Assembly (NCBI GenBank): GCA_964016885.1
Contig: OZ024743.1
Span: forward strand, 103,106,001 to 103,170,000
Source of the DNA: Eledone cirrhosa
Taxonomy: Eukaryota
DNA length: 64,000 nucleotides
Direction of reading: 5' to 3'
The translations under genes and the position numbers were made by a program. The number at the start of each line of letters is the position of its first letter. The stretch's first letter is position 1. The notes below the pieces were generated by a model. The model saw nothing but the letters and a program-made list of their open reading frames with translations. It was not told where the DNA came from and made no database searches. Positions 3,076 through 64,000 of the stretch are shown here, in pieces.

Positions 3076-3158
<83 letters not shown>

Positions 3159-3394
3159 AAACCAGCTGCTGAACATAAGTCCGAGACTTTATTGACAGCG
3201 AGATATGGAGTGCGAAGAAAAACAAATCTGACCTCGGCGGGAGTAGGCGAAAAGAGGCAGAGACGAGAGAAAACGGAAGTAGTAGGGGAGCAGAGAAAAA
3301 GAGAGTATAAGTGAGAGGGAGAGTGAGGGGGGAGAGAGAAAGAAAGGGAAAGGGTTAAGAATAACAAAGGAAATGTGGAGCAAAAATTAATAGA

Positions 3395-3750
3395 AATTTA
3401 GAAGAAACAAGGGGCTGTGTGGTTACTTGATAAAGTGTATTTAGAAATAAAAGGAAAGTACAAACGGTGTACAATCCCTTCTTCAAATATCTGCTGGAGA
3501 ACACGGACATTTCAATACATTAAAAACAATATGTCTAATTCCATTGCGTCAATAACTTGTTAAAGTTATTGAGGAGGGAAAAGGAGAGAGAAAAAAGGTT
3601 ATTGACGCACTGGAGTTAGTCATATTGTCTTTAATCCGTTGAAATGTCCGTGATCTACAGCAGACAACTGAAGAAGGGATTGTCACCCGTTTTTGCTTCC
3701 GTTTTATTTCTAAATACACTTAACCAAGCCCCTTGTTTCTTCTAAACTTT
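3395..3750. repeat. Degenerate ~160-bp inverted repeat, probably an old head-to-head pLTR pair
   Basis: 3395-3556 is an imperfect reverse complement of 3598-3750. It holds a decayed CTGAAGAAGGG...CCCG motif and abuts (TA)n. Confidence 0.55.
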
Positions 3751-3766
3751 ATATATATATATACAT

Positions 3767-3870
<104 letters not shown>

Positions 3871-4080
3871 CGTTTCTGAATTTGTTTAGCAAGATTCTTT
3901 ATCTGAAAACGTGTGTTGAAACCGATATTGTTATACTTTGGGAGGGTCATGTTGCCAATAAGAAACACACGCACCAGTTGCTTTCACTTCAATTTATTAT
4001 AAATTAAATTTATAAATTTAGGAATTTATAAATTTCCGGCTGGTTGGTTGGTTCCACAACCAGACGATTGTTCATATATT

Positions 4081-4123
4081 GTCAAAGTTCTTTCGTCACA
4101 CATTCTGTGACCTCTTCAGTGAC
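4081..4123 (-). ncRNA. Minimal type I hammerhead ribozyme in pLTR
   Basis: GTCA-CTGAAGA-G-GTCACA(GAATG)TGTGAC-GAAA-GAAC-TT-TGAC on the minus strand, sense to the endonuclease ORF. Confidence 0.75.
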
Positions 4124-4322
4124 TGGGGATTCTTTTCTTTGTTTTTGTGCCTCTCCTTTGTTCTGTCCTAAGCCATCTTGTTTTTGTATGTGTTGTGTGC
4201 TTAGTTTGCGCATGTGTTACATCCGGGTGTCTGTGTGTGTTTATATTTGTTTATTTATTTGTTTATTTACATGTTACTGGTTGGTTGTTTGTTCTATGTG
4301 TGTGTGTGTTTTCATTTTGTCC

Positions 4323-5290
4323 TTAATTGTAAGTTGTGATGTTGCTGTTCCATTCATGTTTTCTATTTAATTTTGGTTGGAGTTCATTTATGTTTATTGC
4401 CTCTGTGATTTGTCTAAACATTGCGTCTTTTCTGTGTGTAGATTCTATTTTTATTTCTATGTTCTCTAATTTACCCTTATGTTCTATTTTAGCATGTTGG
4501 TGGAGTACAGATGATTCTTGACTATCTTGAAGCTCTCGCCAGTGTTCATTTATCCGTTCCCCTATACTACGAACTGTCTCACCTATGTACACTATATTCT
4601 TATCTCTACATTGTCCTTCAGTACATCTTATGCTATATACTACATTTCTAGTTTTACAGTTAATATGGGGGCTTAGTTTACAGATTATACATTTCTTATC
4701 TATACAGGGAGGTCTTTGAAAAGGGTATGTATTGCTAATAAGTGTTTTTATGGAGGTACCTGGTCTTTCTACTATCTTAATATTGAATTTATGTTTATCT
4801 CGGGCCCTTCTAAATTTGTAAGCTAATTCACCTCTAGGGGTTGTATTGATGAACATTACACTCTGGTATTTATTGCTATCATACCATGAGTTTATTCTAT
4901 TAACCTTATTCCTAGTTCTTTCTATTCTATTCCAAAATTTGCTACTATAGAAGGGGCAGGTCCCATTTGTATCATTATTTACCATTTTTTCCCATTTGGT
5001 TCTGGCTCCTCTATATACTCCGATCTTATCTCTCTGATTGTAACCAGAGAACTGCATACGGTGGATGAAGTGTTGTATGTGTCTCTCTGGTTCTTTAGGG
5101 TTGCACATGCGGGACACGTTTTTCATCACCCGTACCAAATCCGCAATCAGTATGTTGATTTTGGTGTGGTCCGAAACAGCTGAGTTTCGGTGGATCAGAT
5201 ATTTGGAAGTCATGGGTTTGGCATAATGGGAATGGAGGATCTGTTTTTTGTTATTGATAATATCTAACCAGAGCTCTGTGTTTAGTACAG
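4323..5290 (-). CDS. PLE C-terminus: RT thumb, CxxxxCxxC zinc finger, GIY-YIG endonuclease (5'-truncated)
   Basis: YAKPMTSKYLIHRNSA, RMQFSGY, CIDKKCIIC, NVVYSIRC...VYIGETVRSIGERINEH, HQHAKIEH, RQITEA, LNRKHEW. Confidence 0.9.
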
Positions 5291-5852
5291 GTAATCAATA
5301 TTAAGATAGTAGAAAGACCAGGTACCTCCATAAAAACACGTATTAGCAATACATACCCTTTTCAAAGACCTCCCTGTATAGATAAGAAATGTATAATCTG
5401 TAAACTAAGCCCCCATATTAACTGTAAAACTAGAAATGTAGTATATAGCATAAGATGTACTGAAGGACAATGTAGAGGATAGAATATAGTGTACATAGGT
5501 GAGACAGCTTGTAGTATAGGAGAAAGGATAAATGAACACTGGTGAGAGCGTCAAGATAGTAAAGAATCATCTGTACTCTACCAACATGCTAAAGTAGAAC
5601 ATAAGGGTAAATGAAAGAACATAGAAAAAAAATAGAATCTACACACAGAAAAGACGCAATTACAATTAAGGACAAAATGAAAACACACACACACATAGAA
5701 CAAACAACCAACCAGCAACATGTAAATAAATAAATATAAACACACACAGACACCCGGATGTAACACATGCGCAAACTAAGCACACAACACACATAAAAAC
5801 AAGATGGCGTAAGACAGAACAAAGGAGAGGCACAAAAAGAAAAGAATCCCCA

Positions 5853-5895
5853 GTCACTAAAGAGGTCACAGAATGTGTGACGAAAGAACTTTGAC
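5853..5895 (+). pseudogene. Hammerhead copy with core mutation (CTAAAGA)
   Basis: Same motif as 4081-4123 but G5 changed to A. Confidence 0.7.
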
Positions 5896-7494
5896 AATAT
5901 ATGAACAATCGTCTGGTTGTGGAACCCACCAACCAACCGGAAATTTATAAATTCCTAAATTTATAAATTTAATTTATAATAAATTGAAGTGAAAGCAACT
6001 GGTGCGTGTGTTTCTTATTGACAACATGACCCTCCAAAAGTATAACAATATATATATATATATATATATATATGATCTTCTTGAAATTAAATTATCATTT
6101 ATATCTATACATTAACAATCAGAAATTCAGTATTTTAGTGTAATCTTTCAAAACATATGAATCACTCTCACGCGGATGGCGAATGATAAATTAAATAGAT
6201 AACTAAATACGTTGTATTGTGGAATTTAATAAAACTCCATAACGCTCTGTATTCAAACCCCGCTTATATCGATTTTAAATATATGCACAAGGCCAGCAAA
6301 GTTAATTAAGTTGACTCCAGTATGTAACTGGTATATTATTTATCAACCTCGGAAGGATGGCAACATTGACCTTGGTGGGATTTGAAAGCAAAATGTAAAG
6401 AGCTACATCAGATACTGCAATGGCATTTTATCTACCACCTTACCAATTCTGTCAGTCCTCTAGACTCAAACCGTGTACGAATATTAGAAATAATTGTTGT
6501 ATCTCTCAGCTTCAACACATTTAAACTTGTATTTTTCTCCAGACCATATATGATGTTATAACAGGCTTAAATTCTTTATAACTTTGTACAGTTTCAATTG
6601 AATAAATATGGGGATGTATTTTCGCGAACCCAAACATTTATACTCCATTGAGTTGAAGGCTAACTCTAGATGGATTTCCTTCGATGTTAAGCAGATGGAG
6701 AGAGATATTACTCCGGGTGAGTTGTCGGTGTATCACGGGTCATTTTCCTCTTATTCAAATTGTATACAGTAGAGTAAGCCAACGAAACATTGACCCGGGT
6801 TTTGAAGTACAATACATTGTCAAGGATCAACCAGCCATAAACAAGATTTTCCAGTTCATGGATTCTACGAAAAGATTCAACAACAGAAACTTTTAGTTGC
6901 TTTATAGTTGTCCTTGAATTTCACCTTTTTTATATATGCTCATTTTGCCTTCCGTTTTCTCCCACCCCCTATCTCTCCCTCTGTTTCTCTATTGTATTTG
7001 CTTTTTAGTTGTAAGGGGTATTAGATACCTGTCCAAATCTGTCACGACGTACTAACTTTATACTGGCGTTTAAATTGAAATAAATAAGTTAAAATGTGAG
7101 CTTTACAAAACTATCCAAAAAGGTTATCTTTAATGTTATAAGATCACTACATTGATTCATTCATAGGTTTGTAACTCAATCAACACTCATACAGGTTACG
7201 ATCATCTCAAGTGGAAATGTAAAAGGTTTGCTCGGTGAGAAAAATAGTTGTTTGAAATAATTCTGTGTATATGACATGTAGGCAAAGAAGTGCAGAATTT
7301 GAAATGAGTCGAATGAAATGAATTTAAGTTCTGCATTGAGGTGTACTAGACTATTTGAGAATTAATTTTGTTAGACCATAGAAACCCCAATACAGTAGCA
7401 GTGAAAGCAAAACTACACTGTGCCGATTCAAGCATTATTAAATTTACTTGACTTCTATTCGTTTATTATATCAACAAAATTATGTCCACAAAAG

Positions 7495-10656: not shown

Positions 10657-11572
10657 TCAAGTTATTAATTGGGTATTGAGTTCTAGTCTATTATTGATTG
10701 GTGGTTGTATTTTGTCTATAATTAGTGCTTCCTTAATTCTAAGATTGCCGAGGTTTCTTTCCTTAGTTTCTATCCTAACTGTTATGGTTTTGTCGGTGTT
10801 TTTGCATTTAACTAGGTGTTTCTTAAATGAGGAAGCGTTAGTATTGAGGTCTTCTTTTATTCTTATGTGGAGTGGTCTGGTGGTGCTACCTATGTAGAAG
10901 TTGCTGCATTTGTCACACTCTAGACTGTATACGACGTAAGCCTGGTGGCATAGGTCTGTGTCGTTGATGGGGCAGTTGGCTAGCCTGCAGCAGTTGTCAT
11001 GTCTGGTGGAGTGTCTTTTGGTTAGCTGTCCGCGTAGAGAAGGACCTGAGTGGGCCAGTTGGATATCTAGTCCCTCTCGTCTGATAGCTTTGCGGATGGC
11101 TGTTGTTGTTTCGTCACTGAAGTGTGGGAGCTTCAGGAAGCAAGTGTTAGTGCCTCGGGTGTGGTGTCCTCTGTTCTTTCTGGCACGGTTTGTGGTGGAT
11201 GTCGTGTATCCGTTCAGTTTGAGTACTTCCAGGAAATGTGTGGTGTGTGTGTCTCGGTCTCTAGCATCGGTGCATTTGTTCCGGATACATGTTAGTTCGT
11301 TCCTTATGTATCCGAACTTAGCGCTGGCTGGGAGGGCCGATCTGAAATGTACGAACAGGTCCCTGCTGGCGACTTTTTTATAGAAGCAGGTGTGGATGTT
11401 GCCTTCCTCTGTTACCCTGAGTTGGAAGTCCAGTAGGGATAGGGATCCGCGGTCATCGGGGTGTTCCATGTTGTACTTTATACTGGCGTCCATGCTGGAG
11501 AATGTTGTGTATATTTTATCTGCCTCCTCACAGGATGATGTAAGGATGAGTATGTCATCTACATATCGGGTA
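10657..11572 (-). CDS. PLE RT C-terminus plus GIY-YIG endonuclease
   Basis: [32 protein letters not shown]...[35 protein letters not shown]...PPINNRLE. Confidence 0.88.
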
Positions 11573-11813
11573 GACAACACGTACTTCACCTTCCACCACC
11601 ACACATACAGACAGACAACAGGATTACCCATGGTATCCAGCCTATCGGGTCTGCTGGCCATCACTTATATCAACCAGCTAGAATGCCGAGCCCTCAACAC
11701 CTGCCATTCCCATACCTTCTTCACCCGATATGTAGATGACATACTCATCCTTACATCATCCCGTGAGGAGGCAGATAAAATATACACAACATTCTCCAGC
11801 ATGGACGCCAGTA

Positions 11814-19619: not shown

Positions 19620-20290
19620 AATAACAGCAGCTGCAACAACAGAAGCAACGACAGCTATATTAAGTACAGTAGCAGCAACAATAACATATTCTACAGCAGC
19701 AGCAATATCAGCAGCAATAGCAGCAGCAATAGCAGCAGCAATAACAGCAACAATAACATATTCTACAGCAGCAGCAATAGCAGCAACAATAACATATTCT
19801 ACAGCAGCAGCAATAGCAGCAGCAATAACAGCAGCAATAGCAGCAACAATAACAGCAGCAATAACAGCAGCAATAGCAGCAGCAATAGCAGCAGCATTAG
19901 CAGCAGCAATAACAGCAGCAATAACAACAGCAATAGCAGCAGCAATAACAGCAGCAATAGCAGCAGCAATAACAGCAACAATAGCAGCAGCAATAGCAGC
20001 AGCAATAACAGCAGCAATAGCAGCAGCAATAACAGCAGCAATAACAGCAGCAATAACAGCAGCAATAACAGCAGCAATAACAGCAGCAATAACAGCAGCA
20101 ATAGCAGCAGCAATAACATATTCTACAGCAGCAGCAATAGCAGCAGCAATAACAGCAGCAATAGCAGCAACAATAACATATTCTACAGCAGCAGCAATAG
20201 CAGCAGCAATAACAGCAGCAATAGCAGCAGCAATAACAGCAGCAATAACAGCAGCAATAACAGCAGCAATAACAGCAGCAATAGCAGCAG
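19620..20290. repeat. Compound trinucleotide/12-bp repeat (ATA(G/A)CAGCAGCA) with recurring ATAACATATTCTACA units
   Basis: Directly visible; the poly-Ala and poly-Leu ORFs are by-products. Confidence 0.9.
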
Positions 20291-20795: not shown

Positions 20796-20847
20796 TATAT
20801 ATAAGAGAAATAGGATTTCGCTTCAAGCATAGCTTTGTACAATATGT

Positions 20848-21348
20848 ATAAATATTTCGTATCTCCAAAGAAATACGGTTTTAGGAAGTTTTAGCTATGC
20901 AAGCACCGGGGGGGGGGGGGGCTAACGCCCTCTGGTGATGTCCAGCAGAAGCAAGGGGGACAACCGTCTATGCATTTCAGGCTTAACTGGCCTTCGTCAG
21001 GACGGGCCCTCTCACCGCTTGCGACTGCTGGACTAGGAGACAGGCAAGAATATATAGTTTTCTCGTCTGTGTAAATGAGGTGATTTCTTTTTTTTATTAT
21101 AAGTTGAGCCAACTTATGCAGCTTCATATACAATTGAGATTAATCACTTCATTTACACAGACAAGAAAAGTATATATTCTTGCCTGTCCCCTAGTCCAGC
21201 AGTCGCAAGCGGTGAGAGGGACCGTCCTGGCGAAGGCCAGTTAAGCCTAAAATGCATAGACGATTGTCCCCCTTGCTTCTGCTGGACATCACCAGAGGGC
21301 TTGCATAGCTACGGCTTCCTAAAACAGTATTTCTTTGGAGATACGAAA

Positions 21349-21356
<8 letters not shown>
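20848..21356. mobile_element. Small head-to-head pLTR pair (non-autonomous PLE derivative) with HHR
   Basis: 20848-21085 is inverted relative to 21142-21356, with an HHR in each arm; right end in (TA)n. Confidence 0.75.
20965..21004 (-). ncRNA. Type I hammerhead (A10.1-U11.1 variant); mirror copy 21223-21262 (+) has core mutations
   Basis: CGTC-CTGACGA-AGGC(CAGTTAA)GCCT-GAAA-TGCA-TA-GACG. Confidence 0.75.
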
Positions 21357-21445
<89 letters not shown>

Positions 21446-21531: not shown

Positions 21532-21743
21532 CAAATATAAATTAGCGAGAATCGTGTTTCGGCTTAGCAATTAACGAAAAACAACTTCCGAGATGTGTGG
21601 CAAGCGCTCGATGATTCAGATGAATCAGAGCTACAACATACGTTAAAGGCCAAACACACTGAGATGAGGGTTAAACAAAACATCCGCACAGCCAAAGAAA
21701 CGACCAAGTAATTCGGGTCAAACAATAAAAATATATGTGATTG

Positions 21744-21785
<42 letters not shown>

Positions 21786-21854
21786 GACGTAAAATAAGAA
21801 AATATTTTTTTAAAAAAATTAAAAAAAAAAAATTTTTTTCTTACTTAAATTTTC

Positions 21855-21936
21855 ACTCCAACTAATTAGTTTCTGCAATGGGATAAAGACAGTTACGTAA
21901 TCCAACTGTCGAGAATTCATTGCGTCATCAGGGAGT
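21855..21936 (-). ncRNA. Long-stem-II hammerhead, monomer copy 1
   Basis: Reverse complement of 23379-23460. Confidence 0.7.
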
Positions 21937-22420
21937 CTATTCTCAGTTAAGTCTCCAGGCAATGCGCGGACACTGGCGGCTCATATAAAAATAATAATAA
22001 TTCGGTAGATCGAACAGCTTGCGAGGACTGGATTCTATGTACCGAAATTCTCACTGCTTCAAGTCAAATGGCCGATTCTAAAGAATCAATCACGTGACAC
22101 AGAGGCTAGTTAGAAGGAATGGGATGGTAAGATGACTGACGCCTACTAACACCCCAAAAAAAATTTTTTTAGAAGTGGTTTTGACAAGTTTGCTCGACAA
22201 ATCAGTGATTTGGAGATAAATATAGATAATTTAATATATCAACTAACATAAGCGCACAGATGCACGCCCATGCCAGCAAATACACAGGTTATGTCATAGT
22301 ACCTAGGTGGTTCAATGCAGGAGAATGCAGAACAATAATATAAAGGACGTAAAATAAGAAAATATTTTTTTAAAAAAATTAAAAAAAAAAAAAAAAAATT
22401 TTTTTGTTACTTAAATTTTC

Positions 22421-22502
22421 ACTCCAACTAATTAGTTTCTGCAATGGGATAAAGACAGTTACGTAATCCAACTGTCGAGAATTCATTGCGTCATCAGGGA
22501 GT
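22421..22502 (-). ncRNA. Long-stem-II hammerhead, monomer copy 2
   Basis: Reverse complement of 23379-23460. Confidence 0.7.
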
Positions 22503-22980
22503 CTATTCTCAGTTAAGTCTCCAGGCAATGCGCGGACACTGGCGGCTCATATAAAAATAATAATAATTCGGTAGATCGAACAGCTTGCGAGGACTGGATT
22601 CTATGTACCGAAATTCTCACTGCTTCAAGTCAAATGGCCGATTCTAAAGAATCAATCACGTGACACAGAGGCTAGTTAGAAGGAATGGGATGGTAAGATG
22701 ACTGACGCCTACTAACACCCCAAAAAAAATTTTTTTAGAAGTGGTTTTGACAAGTTTGCTCGACAAATCAGTGATTTGGAGATAAATATAGATAATTTAA
22801 TATATCAACTAACATAAGCGCACAGATGCACGCCCATGCCAGCAAATACACAGGTTATGTCATAGTACCTAGGTGGTTCAATGCAGGAGAATGCAGAACA
22901 ATAATATAAAGGACGTAAAATAAGAAAATATTTTTTTTTAAAAATTAAAAAAAAAAAATTTTTTTCTTACTTAAATTTTC

Positions 22981-23062
22981 ACTCCAACTAATTAGTTTCT
23001 GCAATGGGATAAAGACAGTTACGTAATCCAACTGTCGAGAATTCATTGCGTCATCAGGGAGT
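22981..23062 (-). ncRNA. Long-stem-II hammerhead, monomer copy 3
   Basis: Reverse complement of 23379-23460. Confidence 0.7.
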
Positions 23063-23378
23063 CTATTCTCAGTTAAGTCTCCAGGCAATGCGCGGACACT
23101 GGCGGCTCATATAAAAATAATAATAATTCGGTAGATCGAACAGCTTGCGAGGACTGGATTCTATGTACCGAAATTCTCACTGCTTCAAGTCAAATGGCCG
23201 ATTCTAAAGAATCAATCACGTGACACAGAGGCTAGTTAGAAGGAATGGGATGGTAAGATGACTGACGCCTACTAACACCCCAAAAAAAAAAAAAAAAATC
23301 CCCAAAAAAAAAAATTATTATTATTTTTATATGAGCCGCCAGTGTCCGCGCATTGCCTGGAGACTTAACTGAGAATAG

Positions 23379-23460
23379 ACTCCCTGATGACGCAATGAAT
23401 TCTCGACAGTTGGATTACGTAACTGTCTTTATCCCATTGCAGAAACTAATTAGTTGGAGT
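23379..23460 (+). ncRNA. Long-stem-II hammerhead, monomer copy 4
   Basis: ACTCC-CTGATGA-C-GCAATG[..GACAGTT..AACTGTC..]CATTGC-A-GAAA-CTAATTAG-TT-GGAGT. Confidence 0.7.
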
Positions 23461-23939
23461 GAAAATTTAAGTAAGAAAAAAATTTTTTTTTTTTAAATTT
23501 TTTTAAAAAAATATTTTCTTATTTTACGTCCTTTATATTATTGTTCTGCATTCTCCTGCATTGAACCACCTAGGTACTATGACATAACCTGTGTATTTGC
23601 TGGCATGGGCGTGCATCTGTGCGCTTATGTTAGTTGATATATTAAATTATCTATATTTATCTCCAAATCACTGATTTGTCGAGCAAACTTGTCAAAACCA
23701 CTTCTAAAAAAATTTTTTTTGGGGTGTTAGTAGGCGTCAGTCATCTTACCATCCCATTCCTTCTAACTAGCCTCTGTGTCACGTGATTGATTCTTTAGAA
23801 TCGGCCATTTGACTTGAAGCAGTGAGAATTTCGGTACATAGAATCCAGTCCTCGCAAGCTGTTCGATCTACCGAATTATTATTATTTTTATATGAGCCGC
23901 CAGTGTCCGCGCATTGCCTGGAGACTTAACTGAGAATAG

Positions 23940-24021
23940 ACTCCCTGATGACGCAATGAATTCTCGACAGTTGGATTACGTAACTGTCTTTATCCCATTG
24001 CAGAAACTAATTAGTTGGAGT
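23940..24021 (+). ncRNA. Long-stem-II hammerhead, monomer copy 5
   Basis: Same motif as 23379-23460. Confidence 0.7.
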
Positions 24022-24500
24022 GAAAATTTAAGTAAGAAAAAAATTTTTTTTTTTAAAATTTTTTTAAAAAAATATTTTCTTATTTTACGTCCTTTATATT
24101 ATTGTTCTGCATTCTCCTGCATTGAACCACCTAGGTACTATGACATAACCTGTGTATTTGCTGGCATGGGCGTGCATCTGTGCGCTTATGTTAGTTGATA
24201 TATTAAATTATCTATATTTATCTCCAAATCACTGATTTGTCGAGCAAACTTGTCAAAACCACTTCTAAAAAAATTTTTTTTGGGGTGTTAGTAGGCGTCA
24301 GTCATCTTACCATCCCATTCCTTCTAACTAGCCTCTGTGTCACGTGATTGATTCTTTAGAATCGGCCATTTGACTTGAAGCAGTGAGAATTTCGGTACAT
24401 AGAATCCAGTCCTCGCAAGCTGTTCGATCTACCGAATTATTATTATTTTTATATGAGCCGCCAGTGTCCGCGCATTGCCTGGAGACTTAACTGAGAATAG

Positions 24501-24582
24501 ACTCCCTGATGACGCAATGAATTCTCGACAGTTGGATTACGTAACTGTCTTTATCCCATTGCAGAAACTAATTAGTTGGAGT
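24501..24582 (+). ncRNA. Long-stem-II hammerhead, monomer copy 6
   Basis: Same motif as 23379-23460. Confidence 0.7.
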
Positions 24583-24766
24583 GAAAATTTAAGTAAGAAA
24601 AAAATTTTTTTTTTTTTTTATTTTTTTAAAAAAATATTTTCTTATTTTACGTCCTTTATATTATTGTTCTGCATTCTCCTGCATTGAACCACCTAGGTAC
24701 TATGACATAACCTGTGTATTTGCTGGCATGGGCGTGCATCTGTGCGCTTATGTTAGTTGATATATT

Positions 24767-24819
<53 letters not shown>

Positions 24820-24823
<4 letters not shown>

Positions 24824-42459: not shown

Positions 42460-44453
42460 CACTGGTCAACAACCAAAATGCTTCTTACATGTGAATATGT
42501 GCATCCTACTAATTTCATAGCACTAAATTCAGTTTTGATATTCATTTTTTGCTATCGGACCAGAATGCCTTAATATGAGATCGAAAATATGTTCCTCGTA
42601 TTGCATTATTTATCCATTGTGTAACATATGATGACTTAGATATAAACATATTAACTTATTAATAAAAATATATAAACATATTTTTATTTATTTTTTTAAC
42701 ACTGAGTATATTAACAAAACATTTCTGAACAACATTCTGAACATAACAAAATATTTCAAAACATTTCTAAAAATATTTCTGTATTTTGCTTTTACGCTTG
42801 TTTTGCTGGCTCTCCTCACGTTGCAGTGTCCAGCAGTAGTCGCCCATCATGTTGGGATTGAACCGACCCTGATACCTACTCTCCATTATGGCAATGTCCT
42901 GGTGAAACCTCTCTCCATGTTCATCACTGATGTCTCCTAGATTACTTGGGAAGAAATCCAGATGAGAATGGAAGAAATAAAGCTTCAACGACATTCTTGA
43001 ACCCATAGCGCGATAATTTTGTATCATGGTTTCAACAATTTCTTTATAGTTGTCTGCACGGTGGTTTCCAAGAAAGTTCTGTGTCACATCTACAAATGAT
43101 TTCCATGCATTAGTCTCCAAAGGGTTTAGTGTTTTCGTAAACTCACTATCATTAACCAGCATACGATTCTGAGGACCATTCAAAACCCCTGCTTTTAACT
43201 TTGCTTCAGATACCACTCTATCCGATTTCTTACACACGTACTGAAACCCATTACCCGTATGATCCATGCTTTTAATAAAGTTTTTGGCCAAGCCTAATTT
43301 GAGATGTAATGGAGGGAGGAATACTTTTTCTGGATCCACGAGAGGTTTGTACAGACAGTTGAATCTACCGGGTGAATCTTTTGGTCTTGTTGGCCAATCC
43401 TTCTTCATGTAGTGCTCCGCATCTGCTCTACTATTCCACAAACATAGAAAACACATATGCTTTGTGTAACCAGTCTGAAGACCTAGAAGTAGACTAATTA
43501 AGTTGTTTATGACGATGACGAGCGGTTGTAATGCGGACGCCAGGTTCCAGCAGGTTTCGCTGCTTCAGTCTTGATTCCAGGAGCTCTGCCTTTTCTTTAG
43601 ACAAATGTAGGTCTCTAATGAGATCGTGAAGAGCTTCCTGGTTAAATGGTTTGGGTTCACTTGTCTCATGTTCGTCTTGATAGTAATCATCAATAGGGGT
43701 GCTACTGGAATCAGAATCAGAGATTAGCTCGTGTTCAGCAGGTGGAACTGAAACAGGTAATTCGTCACTGTGAGGTACTGGTCGGATTGCTGACGAGATG
43801 TCGGGGTATTGAAGTGTAGTTTGTGTCTTCACAGTTATTCCTTGGATGTTTATATGGCAGAAGTAGCAATCGTTATTGTGGTCTTTTGGTTCTCGCCACA
43901 CCATTGGTACGGCAAATGACAAACCAGAGCTTCGTTTCCCATTCTTCCATTCACTTAGGTTATTAACACATGACTATACACTATATAAGGCGCCCATTTC
44001 TTGTCCTGGTCTCCTAATTGACATTTGAAGTAGCATTTGTAGTTTACTCGAACTGCTTTTGTGATTGGTTTATTTATGCTTTCTGGGGTAAAGAGTTCAC
44101 AAATATAGCAAAATCGGTCCGAGTCATTTACACATTTCCGGCGTTCTATCTCTCCCACTAGTCAAAGTTGTTGTGAATTATCCAAGAATAGCTGAGGATA
44201 GTTACAATTCTGTGATCTAAAACAAAAGTAGTAAGTGTAAATTAGTTAACAACTAAATATAGTGGATACAATTGGATGAAGTAATATGATCCACATAGCT
44301 ATGGGTCATAAACATTGATATGCTTGTTCTCGAAAACTAGACCCGATACAGCTTAACCGTTGTCATATTCAGATTCTGCACACTTGATTACCCTAGAATC
44401 ATACTAAATTATACCAGAACCATGAAATGAATATCTTTTTTGTTGACCAGTTG
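42460..44453 (-). mobile_element. Chapaev3-like (CMC superfamily) DNA transposon, internally deleted and frameshifted
   Basis: TIRs TAA|CACTGGTCAACAA ... TTGTTGACCAGT(T)G. Transposase motifs LGDQDKKWAP, FAVPMVWREPKDH..DCYFC, LPPLHLKLG, HSHLDFFP..LG..SDEHGERFHQDI..ME.RYQG..DYCW. Confidence 0.75.
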
Positions 44454-51794: not shown

Positions 51795-54700
51795 TATATA
51801 CACGGCATAATGGGTGACATCCTTTTTTTATAATGTTGACTTGGTCATTTTTTGTTGGCAGACACTTAAACGCGGGTTTCCTTGGATTTGCGATAAGTAA
51901 TCATTAGACCCCTTGGGTATCATTCCTAGAGCGCCTACAACCACTGGTATTGTTTTAGTTCTCAATTTCCACATTTTTCCAATTTCTATCTCCAGGTCCT
52001 TATACGTGCTCAATTTTTCAAATGTTTTTAAAGATACATTCTTGTCTATGTGTTTGATGTGGTTATATGCTGCTACTGTTGTATCTAGAGATATATCAGA
52101 TGAAAGAATAGTATTTAACTAATGTATTCGTACGCGATGCCCCCCCCCCCCACAGCCCCGGCCGACAGAATGGAGAAGGCGTTTCCCCGGAGTACGGCAA
52201 GGGAGACGCGCTGGAAAAGCCACTCCAACTCGCGGGGCTCACACCTGCGGCTGGCCAGCTCGGCGCCTATGGTGGTGAGTAAGGAGGTAGCCCTGGGGCC
52301 GAGGACACCAGAAGTCTCCACTGCCAGGGGAACGACCGCAAACCTGTCGCAGAGCGACCGGTATTTGAGGAGTTTGGCCCCCTCAGCCCGACATGCAGCA
52401 GAACCTGGGTTAGTCGCAGACTGCACCAGGTTGCGGCTGCAGAAAGTGTCAGTGCAAGTGGCATCCCAGACGAGGGGTTTGCCACCGCGGAACGGGAAGA
52501 TGATCATGCCATCTGGCCTTTTGCCGTCCCCTCGATCTAGCCCCACCGGCTCGAGCTGGGAAGGGAAGCCTGCAGAGTCCAAGCCATGCTTAATGACCTC
52601 GTTGAGGGCAGTATGGCGTGGAATGCAGCCGGCACTGTGGCGACAGAAAAGCGGGTGGAGGCCGAAAGAGTCCACGGTGGAACCGCAGCGACATTGGTGT
52701 GGCTGGCAGATCCGTAGGCCGAGCTTCAGGGAAACGCCGATTCGCCGGCTATGGTTGTCTAGCTGCGTGCCAGTGGAGAAGGAGGGCAGGGCATGGAGAC
52801 AGGCACCACTGTGGGGTTTGGAGGCCGCACGAAAACAAGCAAGGCGGTGCTGGTTAAGCTGGCGCGTGAACATGTCGGAGGCACGGCTGCACTGGATGGC
52901 ATCCCAAGTGCGTTGGGGGGACTTGACGTCAACAGGGGGAGAAGGAGGAGGGACGTCTACTGGGCTAAGTCCCAGCCGGTCCCACGTCTCACAGGCGGCC
53001 TCACGTTCTCTGAACACAGAGGGTTCTGTTGTGTTTTGAAGAACCCTGCTGACGAGGGCGCGGCACGAGGTTACCGACGAAAGATACGCCGGCAAAGCTA
53101 GTGAGATCGGGGACCGGAGGCCAAGACCGCCATACCTGACCGGTAAAGTGGCCTGTTGCCACCCTATGTCGTCAAACTTGACGTTGCATATCCCCTCTGC
53201 TGCTGCTCGGATACAAGTCTCGAGGTCAGCGGGGAGAGATGTCTGGGTGTAGCATGGAGCGCTGCGGAGTGTATAGAGGAGCTTCGGCATGGCAAAGCAG
53301 TTCCTCGGCAGAAAGAGAGCTGAGTGGCCTTCAATCAAGCCCAGTCGGCTCGTGAGAGTCTGGAATAGTTGAAGCCTGGACCTGATGGTGGAGCGGATGG
53401 CGGGCGGGTGGATCGGTGACCCGAGGATGAGGATATCCTCTTTGGGGTCACCAGAACCTGGCGGAGAATGGACCGCACGTCCAAGACGGAGGCTGCAAAG
53501 TTCGCAGCATCGAGGCTGACGTTCACCACCTCCGACTTGGCCGAGTTGACCCGGAGACCGATTCCCGCCAGGGCAGGAATCACCGATTGAAGTTCATAGC
53601 AGACCGTCCGTACGGGCCCGCCCAACGTAGCATCATCCAGATACCAAACGTTGAGAGGGACCATGATACTCCGGGCGATGTGGTCAATACCAAGGGCGAA
53701 CAGGAGGGGTCCGAAAGGGTCGCCTTGTTGGACCCCAGTAGCTGAGGGTATGACCGTATCAGCAGCTAGAAGCATGCTCGGGTCTCCATATGACAGGTAG
53801 GCAGAGGGGGCTCGGCTGAGGCAGGCCTCGAGCAGATGATCCCGGCGTAAAGAGTTAAAGGCATTCCTCATGTCAAGCTTGACAATGAGGTGCCTGGAGT
53901 CCCTGGATGCCGGTACCGATGGACAGCTGCTGAAGAACTGCCTAATTGCATGAGCGGCTCCTTCACAGCCACCGGACACGCAGACACCCAGTTACACCGG
54001 ACTAAACTCCTCACCCAGTTCGTGTGTGACGGACTTGCAGATCACCTTGGCAGCCAGCCTCCGGAAGACATTGCCCACAGCAATGGGCCGTATGCCACCC
54101 TTGGAACGGAGATATCAATTAGCAGGCATACCCTTTTTAAAAGTCCTTCGGTATTATATCAGGTCTATTTGCATCTATTTTTCGGTCTGTTTGGATGCTT
54201 AAGATTGAGATGTGATCTTTTTCAAGTCCGGGAGGTGGTTGATGCTCCCACCAATTCTTTTGATGGGGCAGATCAAAATGCTTACACATTATCCAATGTA
54301 TGTATTGTGCAGCTCTGTCATGCCTGTTTAGGTATTCGGTTGGAGCTAGAGGACTGCACATTGAAATTATATGATCAATGGTCTCTGGTTGTTTTTTACA
54401 TACACGGCATAATGTGTTGCATCCATTTTTTATTATGTTGGCTTGGTAATATTTTGTTGGCAAACACTGATCTTGTGCTGATATAATCAGTCCTTCAGTC
54501 TCCGATTTCAGTCCAGAGGATGCCAACCACTGATGGGTTAAAGTTTTGTCAACATCAGGATTGTTAACTCTTTCTGGGTATTTTCCATACAGAGGCTTTT
54601 CTTGCCATTTCTTAGCCAGTTTCTGTAGCAGTCCTTTCTTTGCAGTTACTTTTACCTGCTTTGCTTTTTCTGTGTTTTTCATTTCAACAGTAAATGGAAC

Positions 54701-60169: not shown

Positions 60170-63100
60170 AACAACAAAAAGAAAACCCCGTGACCAAGAA
60201 ATACCGGGATGGCGGCCGGCGGGGAATAGCCGTGTCTCTAGGGGAGAACGACCCCTCTAGTCTTGGTTGACACTCGTTCTAGAAGTGGTAACACGAAATG
60301 ATTACCCCTTGGCGGATAAGGATAAAACGCGACAAAATAAAGTAAATGTCTAATGATAAAATCTCATACCGGATCGGCCGTCACCCGGGTAAAAAAGGGC
60401 CGCGTCCCTCAGAGAGGAACCAGACTGGGGTCGAAAAATCAGCTAATGGTTCAAACCTTCCCATCACTTCGGAGCTGGAGACCTCCCATACCGGAATACT
60501 CCTACTGTTGGCCCTCCATGCTCACCACCAAGAAATCCAAAGAAAAAGAGAGAAAAATGGTCAAGGGAAGATAATAAAGAAGTCCTTGAGGCTTTCTACA
60601 CTGCCATGTACTACCCATCAAATACATCGAATACAGAACAGACATATATCAACTGGAAAAATAAACATCCCGAAAACAGAGGCTATATTGACAGTAACAA
60701 ACTAGCCAATATACGAAGAAATATTGTAAGAAAAAAGTTACTAACTGATATAGAAATTGATCAGATCAAGCTATTAGCACAAAGTCAGCGAAGGGAAAAT
60801 GAAACATGTGTCAGTGAAAACGAGGTAAACTGTAACACTTCGAATCCCAGGGTTGGGGCGGAATCACTGGCAACAGAACAAATTAAAGAAAGGATCGAAA
60901 AAGTGGAGGGAGTGCATGCTCAGGATGAAACTCCAAATGAAAATGAGATCGTAAATGATAAAGAAATGAATGAGAATGAACTTGCCAACTTGAAGGATGA
61001 AATTATGATCGAATGGATGAAAATGAAAGAATCTGACATGGGGCAACGAGACACCCTCCCTAAGATCCAGAACTCCAAACAGAACCAAAAGATAATACAC
61101 AAGACTAACATAATTCTCAAAAACATTATCATCACAAACAAACTAAACATTACTGATTTAAATCACCTCTATTATGCATCGGCTAAAGTCACCACTCACT
61201 TATGTGGAGTGAAGATGAAAAAACAAAGGAATTCCCACAAGAAACCTACTTGGCAAGAGAACATCAATCGCCAAATAAACCTTCTCCGATCTGACATAGA
61301 AATTTTAACAAACTATAAAGTAGGTGAACATGTTAAACAAACTAAACTTAGAAAATTGAAAAAAAAGTACAGTATAAAATCAACATGTGACATAGACATG
61401 CTGATAGAAATAATCAAGCAAAAAGTGTCGGCCAAAGCTGCCTGTATAAGGCGCTTTGAAAAACGATCTAGATTCTATAAGGACAATAATATGTTCAAAA
61501 ACAACCAAAGAAACTTCTACAGAAAAATTGGTAAGTCAACAATAACTGCTAAATCAATACCACCCAAGGAGGAAGTGCAAGAATTCTGGGAAAAGATCTG
61601 GGCCGAAGAAAAAGTTCATAACATACATGCCCCATGGATAGACAGACAAATGAAACATACAGCTCACCTTGAGGAACAAACATGGGAAAATATAACAGTT
61701 GAACAGTTGCGCTTGGCTCTAAGAAAAACCAGCAAATGGAAATCCCCAGGAAAAGACAAAATACAAAACTTTTGGATAAATGCCTTCACAGAGTCTCATG
61801 AGCTGTTAGCCCAACTTTACAATGAAATAGTTAAGGAGCCAGAAAAGATACCTTCATGGCTAGTTAACGGCATTACATTCCTGCTTCCGAAGAATGATGA
61901 GACAAACAATCCCAAAAATTACAGACCGATAACTTGCTTGACCACAATGTATAAAATTTTAACATCAGTCCTAACTGAATACACATATGACCACCTGATA
62001 ACAAATGACCTATTTCCCATTGAGCAGAAAGGGTGTAAACGAGGCTCATATGGCTGTAAGGATCAGCTTCTGGTTAACAAAATGATACTGGAAGATTGTC
62101 ATAATAGACACAAAAATCTATCGATTGCTTGGATAGATTATAAAAAAGCATTTGATAGTTTGCCACACAGTTGGATTGAAAAATGTTTAGAGATTTTCAA
62201 AATATCCCCCGTTGTCAGGAGGTTTTTGTCATTCAGTATGAAGACATGGAAAACGACACTCCTTTTGAATAGTGAAACAAAATCACTGGAAGCTAGAGAA
62301 GTTAATATTAATTGTGGAATTTTTCAGGGTGAGTCTTTATCACCGCATTTATTCTGCATCGCACTTATACCATTAAGTAAAATGCTCAATGAAACAAAAC
62401 ATGGATATAAAGTCTATGACAAAACCATTAATCACCTGTTCTACATGGATGACCTGAAACTATTTGCAAAAAATGATGAACAATTGCAAGGGCTATTATC
62501 CACTGTGAAGCAGTTCAGTGATGACATTAAAATGGAGTTTGGACTAGATAAATGCGCCAAAGCAACGTTCACCAGAGGAAAGCTGCTGAAGAGTTCAGAC
62601 ATTAATCTTGATCGGCGGAACGTGATAAGAGAACTTGATCAAGAAAAAACTTACAAATATCTAGGTGTTTGTGAAGGAGACGGAATCAAGCACTCGACAA
62701 TGAGGGAAAGGATAAGGAAGGAATGTTACCGCAGAGTAAGAGCAATCTTAAGAACGGAATTGAATGCAAGGAATAGGATCGATGCCATAAACACGCTTGC
62801 CATACCAGTAGTAACCTACAGTTACAATGTCATCAACTGGTCAAGCACAGAGATCCGTAGGCGCGATACAAAAATTCGAAAATTCTTAACCATGCACAGA
62901 ATACATCACCCTAAGGCAGATATAGATAGAATATATCTCCCTAGGAAAGAAGGAGGACGTGGGTTAATCCAGTTAGACATTGCGTTGAAAACTGCAACAA
63001 TTGGTTTATCTACATATCTAAGGGAATCACATGATTGGATGATCAAACTCGTTTTGAAACACGAAAGCATCAAAAGATCATATTCCATTACAAAAGATGC

Positions 63101-64000
63101 ACAAAGATACAGTAATGGACTACAAATTTCAGAAGCCCCATTTACTGCTGAAATGGAAAACACAGAAAAAGCAAAGCAGGTAAAAGTAACTGCAAAGAAA
63201 GAACTGCTACAGAAACTGGCTAAGAAATGGCAAGAAAAGCCTCTGTATGGAAAATACCCAGAGCGAGCTAACAATCCTGATGTTGACAAAACTTTAACCC
63301 ATCAGTGGTTGGCATCCTCTTGACTGAAATCGGAGACTGAAGGACTGAAGGACTGATTATATTGGCACAAGATCAGTGTCTGCCAACAAAAAATTACCAA
63401 GCCAACATAATAAAAAATGGGTACAGCCCATTATGCCGTGTATGCAAAAAACAACCAGAGACCATTGACCATATAATTTCAATGTGCAGTCCTATAGCTC
63501 CAACCGAATACCTAAACAGGCATGACAGAGCTGCACAATACATACATTGGATAATGTGTAAGCATTTTGACCTGCCCATCAAAAGAATTGGTGGGAGCAT
63601 CAACCACCTCCCATACTTGAAAAAGATCACATCTCAATCTTGTGGAACTTTAGCATCCAAACAGACCGAAAAATAGATGCAAACAGACCTGATATAATAT
63701 TGAAAGACTTTCAAAAGAGGGTATGCCTGCTAATTGATATGTCTGTTCCAATAGACAAGAATGTATCTATAAAAACATTTGAAAAATTGAGCAAGTATAA
63801 GGACCTGGAGATAGAAATTGGAAAAATGTGGAAATTGAGAACTAAAACAATACCAGTGGTTGTAGGCGCTCTGGGAATGATACCTAAGGGGTCTAATGAT
63901 TACTTATCGCAAATCCCAGGAAACCCGCGTATAGGAGAAATACAAAAGATAGTACTAATGGGAACTGCCCATATACTAAGGAAGATTCTGTCAATATAAG
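60170..64000 (+). mobile_element. Near-full-length R4/Dong-type non-LTR retrotransposon
   Basis: GC-rich 5' leader, then a single RT-CCHC-restriction-like endonuclease ORF that reaches the window end. Confidence 0.92.
60346..63999 (+). pseudogene. R4/Dong ORF (RT, zinc knuckle, PD-(D/E)xK endonuclease) with frameshift ~60555, nonsense at 63321, 8-bp duplication ~63335-63357 and frameshift ~63580
   Basis: WKSPGKD, NYRPITCL, EQKGC, WIDYKKAFDS, GIFQGESLSP, YMDDLKLF, YKYLG, CRVC..ETIDHI, RHD, RPDII, KYKDL. The paralogue at ~54515 has GGA where this copy has TGA. Confidence 0.9.

What the first reader, a model, noticed from the sequence alone, without database searches (positions are those of the whole stretch)
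21781..24772. Palindromic, circularly permuted array of 561-nt hammerhead monomers: candidate retrozyme / circular-RNA parasite
Seen: six HHR-bearing, nearly identical monomer copies that differ mainly in A/T-tract lengths. About 2.7 units lie on the minus strand and 2.6 on the plus strand, joined 5'-to-5'. The four arm ends fall at four different phases of the monomer, both outer ends join (TA)n, and there is no coding capacity. Knowledge: metazoan non-LTR retrozymes are tandem type I HHR repeats that yield circular RNAs and are thought to use PLE proteins; the monomers I recall are shorter than this. Inference: read-through transcription plus self-cleavage gives a 561-nt monomer that circularises, and rolling-circle reverse transcription from both ends of a (TA)n break built this locus recently. 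It would also produce ~1.5 kb of near-perfect dsRNA.
Basis: partly seen in the sequence, partly recalled or inferred. Interest (0 to 1): 0.9.

Follow-up and report, generated by a model that had tools for sequence, protein, structure and literature searches.

The report
Two-ended retrozyme insertions by Penelope-like enzyme
This is one copy of a very young, genome-wide family of non-coding repeats carrying a hammerhead-ribozyme motif; nearly every two-armed copy examined ends at one fixed site on one side and a second fixed site on the other, which likely shows a Penelope-like retrotransposon enzyme copying one RNA onto both ends of a chromosome break.

Summary
Observation confirmed: two head-to-head arms (2.70 and 2.62 units of a ~561-nt monomer), six type I hammerhead cores, both outer ends fused to (TA)n. 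It is no artefact or single satellite: all 40 scored loci were fetched, ~0.2% diverged; relatives give 7,316 exact motif matches genome-wide. The hammerhead fold covaries across 13 subfamily representatives, with a conserved C·A mismatch at the base of stem II; cleavage is untested.

Correction: phases are not free. Outer (3') ends lie at two fixed UAUA-type sites, A and B, ~118 nt apart; 65 of 66 resolved two-armed loci have one A and one B end, and both arms always share haplotype (24/24; 26/26). A young autonomous Neptune-like PLE here (intact 1,210-aa ORF) obeys the same rule (18/18). This is the PLE 'tail at one end plus inverted copy' signature, on a retrozyme. Best model: one RNA, likely a circle, primed at A and B from both ends of a (TA)n break, cDNAs joined by microhomology. 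Variants recurring in non-adjacent units show that a monomer circle is not the only template. No RNA data; partner not proven. New variant of a known kind.

The parts
21746..21782 (.). (TA)n target tract fused to the 3' end of the left arm
21778..23289 (-). Left arm, 2.70 monomers; 3' end at site A (monomer phase ~83, ...GUCCUUUAUAU), 5' end truncated at phase ~258
21855..21953 (-). Type I hammerhead (core starts 21931; predicted cleavage 3' of 21860)
22421..22519 (-). Type I hammerhead (core starts 22497; predicted cleavage 3' of 22426)
22981..23079 (-). Type I hammerhead (core starts 23057; predicted cleavage 3' of 22986)
23290..23312 (.). Central head-to-head junction filler, 23 nt, repeating the CCCC-A-run at the end of the left arm (templated insertion, inferred end-joining product)
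23313..24772 (+). Right arm, 2.62 monomers; 5' end truncated at phase ~419, 3' end at site B (here 4 nt upstream of the usual UAUCUAUAU junction)
23362..23476 (+). Type I hammerhead: stem I ACUCC/GGAGU, CUGAUGA at 23384, C·A then stem II GCAAUG/CAUUGC, distal stem II hairpin, GAAA, palindromic stem III ACUAAUUAGU, GUU cleavage triplet (cut predicted 23455/23456), candidate loop I-loop II pseudoknot GAGAA/UUCUC
23456..24016 (+). Complete 561-nt cleavage-to-cleavage monomer (36% GC), the predicted circle
23523..23538 (+). Internal copy of priming site A (phase ~68-83)
23539..23656 (+). Internal copy of the ~118-nt 'tail' between sites A and B, with a conserved hairpin and a long stem ending just before B
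23923..24037 (+). Type I hammerhead (core 23945; predicted cut 24016/24017)
24017..24577 (+). Second complete 561-nt monomer
24484..24598 (+). Type I hammerhead (core 24506; predicted cut 24577/24578)
24773..24821 (.). (TA)n target tract fused to the 3' end of the right arm

Best explanation
This is one insertion of an active, non-coding, hammerhead-bearing retrozyme family whose two arms end at two different fixed sites and share one haplotype, and it was likely made when a Penelope-like (Neptune-type) RT/endonuclease cut a (TA)n tract and copied one RNA, probably a self-cleaved and ligated ~561-nt circle, onto both broken ends. Shown: family of dispersed young loci; 3' ends fixed at sites A and B, each ending in UAUA-type letters that match the target; one A and one B end per two-armed locus; both arms carry the same haplotype; either arm can be the longer; inner ends vary and are joined by microhomology or short fillers; junctions at the cleavage site are scar-free; an autonomous PLE in the same genome has the same architecture. 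Inferred: transcription, hammerhead cleavage and ligation to a circle (about 0.6); an enzyme dimer holding one RNA with one subunit at A and one at B; priming by pairing of the (TA)n 3' ends to UAUA; rolling reverse transcription of 0.2-9 units; joining of the two cDNAs by microhomology-mediated end joining; the young 4.1-kb Neptune-like family as the enzyme source (about 0.5).
For: 40 of 40 scored family-1 loci fetched (315 candidates): 29 two-armed, all A+B (2e-9 if the ends chose independently), 11 one-armed ending at A (6) or B (5). Family 2 (525 nt): 13 of 13 resolved two-armed loci A+B, sites 118 nt apart. Family 3: 11 of 12. Positional sample of the first 30 motif matches on C1 (21 clusters): 12 of 12 resolved. 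Arms concordant at position 488 in 24 of 24 loci (13 C/C, 11 T/T) and at a second marker in 26 of 26. Three rare all-unit variants (G519T, G525A, C243G) occur as single-unit variants in other loci, the mark of a monomer bottleneck. 191 of 195 cleavage-site crossings are unchanged, the other 4 carry one substitution or a 1-nt deletion beside the site. Central junctions: 19 overlaps of 1-13 nt, 3 blunt, 7 fillers. Hammerhead helices covary: 28 cells with both sides changed versus 8.9 in shuffles, 0/500. Young Neptune-like PLE: 150 of 150 scored matches 99-100% identical; 4,117-nt tandem units with an intact 1,210-aa ORF, (TA)n-fused ends, A+B in 18 of 18 resolved loci of 19 fetched. Literature: two RT start sites make the PLE tail, both strands are cut and extended, a dimer is predicted (PMC11167929); an inverted 5'-truncated copy and a tail at one end only are typical of PLEs (PMC8557442).
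Against: No RNA-level evidence was obtained. The core has an invariant C·A mismatch at the base of stem II (13/13) and single-sequence folding prefers a mis-paired core, so cleavage may be slow or need a dimer or protein; Li et al. saw cleavage in only 1 of 9 Xenopus dimers, and PAc inserted uncleaved RNA in vitro. Five variants recur in 2-3 but not all units of one locus (L013, L027, L030, L035, L042), which one monomer circle cannot give; one family-3 locus is A+A with a chimeric arm (L099). Inner ends do not pile up exactly at the cleavage site (2 of 29 plus arms within 4 nt, 0.4 expected) but are enriched in phases 535-60 (11 of 29 versus 4.5), which fits either RT stalling or linear, cut templates. 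No sequence similarity between retrozyme and either Neptune family, so the partner rests on target, age and architecture. PAc primed without homology in vitro, unlike the microhomology seen here.
Confidence: 0.78

Rival explanations
1. Same PLE two-site priming, but the template is a linear, uncleaved or partly cleaved multimeric transcript of a parent array (or several RNAs with template switching); the hammerhead is weak and circles play little part.
For: Variants recurring in non-adjacent units, some with period 2; chimeric arm in L099; C·A mismatch in the core; uncleaved RNA was the main PAc substrate in vitro; scar-free junctions fit this as well.
Against: Linear copying with 5' truncation can only shorten arrays, yet arms reach 9.1 units and rare single-unit variants are found fixed in all units of other loci; 44 private substitutions are almost never mirrored in the matching unit of the other arm; the ribozyme fold is kept by compensatory changes across subfamilies.
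Confidence: 0.15
2. A monomer or short pLTR-like piece inserts and is amplified locally afterwards by unequal crossing-over (satellite-birth model discussed by Li et al. 2026), with gene conversion homogenising the arms.
For: Partial sharing of variants among units shows some exchange; 11 of 40 loci are one-armed and some hold only ~1.1 units.
Against: Multimers on both arms in loci only ~0.1-0.2% diverged; no locus with mixed 488 alleles among 24; the autonomous PLE shows 99.95-100% identical 4.1-kb tandem units in the same layout.
Confidence: 0.04
3. One priming event only; the inverted arm is a fold-back copy of the first cDNA or of an antisense template (self-priming model of Arkhipova et al. 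2013), and the second end is trimmed by the endonuclease.
For: Explains head-to-head geometry, shared haplotype and a tail at one end.
Against: Either arm can be the longer (A longer in 12, B in 17 of 29); the inner ends of the two arms are at unrelated phases with no palindromic centre; private variants are not mirrored; one-armed loci end at A or B about equally.
Confidence: 0.02
4. Fold-back read or assembly artefact.
For: Long near-perfect inverted repeats with homopolymers are hard to assemble; no spanning raw reads were seen here.
Against: Different unique flanks on the two sides, two different fixed outer ends, locus-specific junctions, and the same rule in three retrozyme families, a positional sample and an autonomous PLE.
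Confidence: 0.01

Closest known systems
Metazoan non-LTR retrozymes (Cervera & de la Pena 2020, PMC7229834; Li, Clavereau & Pollet 2026, 10.64898/2026.07.22.740005)
   Same: Tandem non-coding repeats, low GC, a type I hammerhead in every unit, no LTR/PBS/PPT, size within the reported 51-972 bp range, co-occurring PLEs, proposed rolling-circle reverse transcription; a mismatch at the base of stem II and palindromic helix III have precedents in axolotl retrozymes.
   Different: Here the insertion anatomy is resolved: fixed A/B 3' ends, inverted two-arm layout, (TA)n target, shared haplotype of both arms. The word 'inverted' does not occur in the main text of PMC7229834. No pLTR homologue was found, unlike 24 of 57 Xenopus families. 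Extended stem II with a Watson-Crick loop I-loop II pairing in place of the usual tertiary contacts. Expression and circles not shown.
Insertion architecture of endonuclease-bearing Penelope-like elements: partial tandem, inverted 5'-truncated copy, 30-40-bp tail at one end (PMC8557442, PMC3846280); two internal RT start sites of Anolis Poseidon (PMC11167929)
   Same: Head-to-head inverted arms, tail on one end only, two internal start sites, AT-rich or (TA)n targets, microhomology at 5' junctions.
   Different: No ORF; tail ~118 nt (45-60 nt in the local Neptune-like families); both start sites are complementary to the target; the one-end-only rule is near absolute (65/66; 18/18) and both arms trace to one template, which favours twin priming over the self-priming and endonuclease-resolution ideas in those papers.
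Twin priming / 5' inversion of LINE-1 (recalled, not from a call)
   Same: Both target strands prime on one RNA and the two cDNAs join by microhomology, giving an inversion.
   Different: In L1 the second priming site is variable and upstream on a linear RNA, so the arms do not overlap; here it is fixed, 118 nt from the first, and both arms copy the same sequence many times.

Membership tests
Non-LTR retrozyme | Tandem repeats with a complete type I hammerhead in at least two consecutive units | tested here: met
   Three consecutive cores per arm; core CUGA(U/C)GA in 345 of 345 motif hits and AGAAACUAAUUAGUU exact in 331 of 345 (the search itself required the motif); helices covary.
Non-LTR retrozyme | Non-coding, low GC, no LTR/PBS/PPT | tested here: met
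   36% GC; no ORF of 150 aa or more; no terminal direct repeats. PBS/PPT not searched separately.
Non-LTR retrozyme | Dispersed multi-copy family with signs of retrotransposition | tested here: met
   40 loci on 14 contigs, fixed 3' and variable 5' ends; 7,316 exact matches to the shared site-A motif, 0 to the reversed control.
Non-LTR retrozyme | Canonical hammerhead core geometry (paired base of stem II, loop I-loop II contact) | tested here: inconclusive
   C·A at the first stem II position in 13 of 13; Rfam models do not hit; candidate pseudoknot 97% paired but only one double change.
Non-LTR retrozyme | Self-cleavage of the transcript | not testable with these tools
   Needs in vitro transcription.
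Non-LTR retrozyme | Accumulation of monomeric linear and circular RNA | not testable with these tools
   No RNA holder was listed; contigs cannot show circles.
PLE-mobilised element | Inverted 5'-truncated copy and tail on one end only | tested here: met
   65 of 66 resolved two-armed loci.
PLE-mobilised element | Co-existing active autonomous PLE with the same target | tested here: met
   Intact 1,210-aa ORFs, (TA)n-fused ends, 18/18 A+B; the related older family matches RT/HTH_animal/GIY-YIG clusters at 0.97. 'Neptune' is my label from the CxxxxCxxC motif before GIY-YIG, not from a tree; Pfam gave no hit.
PLE-mobilised element | Sequence homology to the pLTR of an autonomous PLE | tested here: not met
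   Only low-complexity matches to the two Neptune-like families examined; other PLE families of the genome were not screened.
PLE-mobilised element | Target-site duplication | tested here: inconclusive
   Hidden by the (TA)n target; no empty site was found.

The most novel reading that the evidence does not exclude
A PLE enzyme dimer grips one circular RNA at two fixed sites, primes one chromosome end at each and rolls round the circle, for retrozyme and autonomous element alike; while priming it stutters like telomerase on the short template, so these elements write part of the (TA)n and (TC)n microsatellites that flank them. Support: (TC)7-23 runs appear at B ends (6 of 12 in family 3; 5 of 19 in the positional sample, 0 of 14 A ends) while internal B sites of the same loci keep 1-2 TC and the partner ends show no (GA)n; the pure TA run is longer on the primed side in 18 of 19 one-armed loci. 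Against: family-2 A ends with a (TC)3 seed do not stutter, later slippage beside (TA)n and loss at the 5' join could give both patterns, and no empty site was found.
Probability: 0.3. Interest if true: 0.8.

Novelty: new variant of a known kind. Interest (0 to 1): 0.6.

Why it matters
How PLEs make their tandem and inverted insertions with a tail at one end is described as undefined (PMC8557442), and PLE mobilisation of animal retrozymes has been argued from co-occurrence and pLTR similarity. This genome offers thousands of young insertions whose ends behave as a near-absolute rule, a 561-nt RNA small enough to make in vitro, and a candidate enzyme with intact ORFs. That turns the dimer, two-site, one-RNA model and the circle-template model into direct experiments, and could tie telomerase-like repeat addition to microsatellite birth. 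If the partner is confirmed, a circle written as head-to-head multimers into (TA)n would also be a compact RNA-templated insertion system to study.

Tried and rejected
Rfam: no family at gathering threshold; three chance snoRNA matches at E<=10. Own-genome DNA search with the hammerhead stretch alone returned nothing because common words are skipped; no conclusion drawn. Sequencing runs: no RNA holder listed, no evidence either way. Twelve runs under nine organism codes held 0.2 or more of the words; four were laid: near-identical pieces at low depth in three, many variants in one that may be the assembly's own study; not usable for host range or horizontal transfer. Empty-site search among fetched loci: none found; the left flank belongs to a different repeat. 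Retrozyme versus Neptune-like sequences: no homology. Pfam did not recognise the PLE ORFs. The '488' column and the concordance count printed read the neighbouring bases and were discarded; the 488 counts come from the per-unit lists. Inner-end phases were biased by homopolymers and by selection of minus-strand hits, so only the plus-arm values were tested. The script scored two A ends as B by a threshold; they were re-read from the printed sequence. The 'fam2b' row was mis-sliced and ignored. The bacterial promoter scan is not relevant to an animal and was ignored. Eight literature searches were answered; none of the listings pointed to a paper that reports a one-A-one-B rule, inverted two-arm retrozyme insertions or repeat addition by a PLE RT, but the library is limited and supplements were not read.
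Full report
Observation. The array is as described: a minus-strand arm of 2.70 units (21778-23289), a 23-nt filler, and a plus-strand arm of 2.62 units (23313-24772), both outer ends fused to (TA)n. Six hammerhead cores are present; the four complete cleavage-to-cleavage units are 561, 561, 560 and 566 nt. No ORF of 150 aa overlaps it. Rfam does not detect the ribozyme.

The ribozyme. The motif reads as type I: stem I ACUCC/GGAGU, CUGAUGA, a C·A mismatch, stem II GCAAUG/CAUUGC with an internal loop and a distal hairpin, GAAA, a self-complementary stem III (ACUAAUUAGU) and a GUU triplet. From 345 motif hits in the fetched loci I took 13 of 16 cluster representatives, leaving out three that were 5'-truncated or damaged. 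On that alignment 96.6% of cells pair and 28 cells change on both sides (8.9 in shuffles, 0/500; slid controls 0-4); one stem II position shows all four Watson-Crick pairs. Relatedness inflates such scores, and I named the structure myself. The C·A is invariant (13/13). A GAGAA/UUCUC pairing between the internal loops of stems I and II is 97% paired with a single double change, so it is a candidate only. Single-sequence folding keeps stem II but mis-pairs the core. A mismatch at the base of stem II and rescue by dimers are described for axolotl retrozymes (PMC7229834). Activity is untested.

The family. The genome (G000, 3.0 Gb, animal by its repeats; not identified) gave 315 candidates, 40 scored; I fetched all 40 loci. 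Units differ from the window monomer at 0.22% of unmasked sites, 0.09% without the common 488 polymorphism. Related families of 525 nt (1,759 candidates) and ~534 nt (2,631) and further subfamilies exist; a motif shared by them has 7,316 exact matches, none for the reversed control.

The rule at the ends. Outer 3' ends are not random. They lie at site A (phase ~83...CCUUUAUAU) or site B (phase ~201...AUCUAUAU), although the monomer has four UAUAU motifs. All 29 two-armed family-1 loci have one A and one B end; the 11 one-armed loci end at A (6) or B (5). Family 2: of 19 distinct loci examined (20 of 40 scored were returned), 13 two-armed resolved, all A+B, 2 unresolved, 4 one-armed; the query favoured a B-ended first arm but not the nature of the second. 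Family 3: of 16 loci, 11 A+B, 1 A+A with a chimeric arm, 4 one-armed. A positional sample, the first 30 motif matches on C1 in 21 clusters, gave 12 of 12 resolved loci A+B; the rest were one-armed or ran beyond the 3-kb loci. Total 65 of 66. Inner ends vary; the 29 family-1 junctions show 19 overlaps of 1-13 nt, 3 blunt joins and 7 fillers of 1-23 nt.

One template for both arms. Both arms share the 488 allele in 24 of 24 loci with coverage (13 C/C, 11 T/T) and a second marker in 26 of 26; locus-specific variants run through all units of both arms (L014, L028, L030, L031, L032, L037, L040, L051). Either arm may be longer (A 12, B 17), and 44 private substitutions are not mirrored, so one arm is not a fold-back copy of the other. 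Three rare variants fixed in all units of a locus are single-unit variants elsewhere, as expected if one unit is cut out and re-amplified. Arms reach 5.1 kb (9.1 units) and 191 of 195 cleavage-site crossings are unchanged, so end-to-end jumping between cut monomers leaves no scar if it occurs. Against a pure monomer circle: five variants recur in two or three units only, sometimes two units apart or in both arms, which needs multimeric templates, template switching or later gene conversion. Plus-arm inner ends are enriched around the ribozyme and the A/U hairpins (11 of 29 in phases 535-60, 4.5 expected, p=0.003) but not at the cut itself.

The likely enzyme. The window holds an older Neptune-like PLE (about 3868-6048) with a hammerhead in its pLTR and two (TA)n-fused ends 57 nt apart; four apparently two-armed copies are A+B. 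A related family met in L013 is very young: 150 of 150 scored matches at 99-100%, 4,117-nt tandem units 99.95-100% identical with an intact 1,210-aa ORF, and 18 of 18 resolved loci A+B among 19 that I chose as opposed pairs. Both arms of a locus fall in the same subfamily. It has no detectable sequence similarity to the retrozyme, so partnership is inferred from target, age and architecture. The older family's ORF matches RT/HTH_animal/GIY-YIG clusters (0.97); the clade name is mine, from the cysteine motif.

Mechanism. Shown steps are the sequence facts above. Inferred: transcripts, probably from one-armed copies, self-cleave and are ligated; a PLE dimer binds the A-B region, cuts (TA)n on both strands, pairs each 3' end with UAUA at A or B, reverse-transcribes round the RNA until it falls off, and the two cDNAs are joined by microhomology. 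If one arm fails, a one-armed copy results. A transcript through this locus would form ~1.47 kb of duplex, with the antisense arm made first, so silencing is a more likely outcome here than circle production (inference).

Repeat addition, a bolder reading. B ends carry (TC)8-23 in 6 of 12 family-3 loci and (TC)7-13 in 5 of 19 sampled ends (0 of 14 A ends), while internal B sites of the same loci hold 1-2 TC and the partner ends begin with (AT)n. In one-armed loci the pure TA run is longer on the primed side in 18 of 19 (p=8e-5). This fits stuttering by a telomerase-related RT, but family-2 A ends with (TC)3 do not stutter, later slippage and 5' loss are open, and no empty site was found.

Comparison with print. 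Li et al. 2026 (parts 1-3 of 5 read: introduction to discussion) link retrozymes to PLEs by co-occurrence and pLTR similarity and discuss local amplification. Cervera & de la Pena 2020 (parts 2-4 of 6 and passages) show cleavage and circles and propose PLE mobilisation. Frangieh et al. 2024 (parts 1-2 of 4, the main text) show two start sites, extension of both strands and a predicted dimer. Craig et al. 2021 and Arkhipova et al. 2013 (passages only) describe inverted copies and the one-ended tail. L1 twin priming is recalled. Supplements were not read and may already show such retrozyme insertions. Earlier AI notes of this scan report PLE-type ends on other non-coding tandem elements; they were not checked here.

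Verdict. A real, very young non-LTR retrozyme insertion with PLE insertion anatomy: a new variant of a known kind. Its value is the near-absolute two-site, one-template rule shared with an intact autonomous PLE, which makes the PLE and retrozyme cycles testable. Interest 0.6.

Noticed in passing
window 3080-6073 (also 1707-2873): Older Neptune-like PLE pieces: ORF 4323-5294(-), pLTR hammerhead near 4120-4080(-), B end at 3871(-) and A end at 6048(+), both fused to (TA)n; family has 41,126 protein-search candidates at 91-95% identity among the best.
   Followed up: partly
G000 C1:307331900-307351500 (L188, L189) and L170-L187: Very young autonomous Neptune-like PLE with full-length 4,117-nt tandem units (1,210-aa ORF), two-armed, with two alternative B sites 45 and 60 nt after A; full-length tandem arms suggest that the autonomous RNA may also be copied as a circle.
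   Followed up: partly
window 21540-21745: Short piece of another repeat between two (TA)n tracts; 2,420 candidates, elsewhere in tandem with a 597-604-nt period; no hammerhead found in it by a simple scan.
   Followed up: partly
window 20842-21361: Fold-back element (159-nt arms 95% complementary plus 63-nt outer arms) ending in (TA)n, with a possible degenerate hammerhead at 21000(-); 2,441 candidates, several with opposed arms; may be another two-armed PLE-type stub.
   Followed up: partly
L099:1097-2574: Only A+A locus found; its long arm joins 99% and 88% units, a template switch or recombinant between subfamilies.
   Followed up: partly
L107:1308-2167: The same 13-nt flank sequence follows the (TA)n on both sides of the insertion in opposite orientation.
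   Followed up: no
L042:6757-6849: A 93-nt foreign insert inside a retrozyme unit with a 16-nt duplication.
   Followed up: no
window 10657-11664(-): Fragment of another PLE-type RT/GIY-YIG ORF with (CA)-rich 3' region; a 53% relative lies in L016.
   Followed up: no
window 60447-63323(+), 52115-53991(-), 42767-43973(-): 958-aa RT frame (RVT_1, E 1e-28) of a LINE-type element, a second LINE-like RT fragment, and transposase-like frames.
   Followed up: no
window 19697-20290: 12-nt tandem array (CAGCAGCAATAA, 49.5 copies).
   Followed up: no
runs X1, X2, X6, X7, X9-X12: Near-identical monomer words in runs under several organism codes, at low depth where laid; trace DNA, close relatives or transfer cannot be told apart.
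   Followed up: partly
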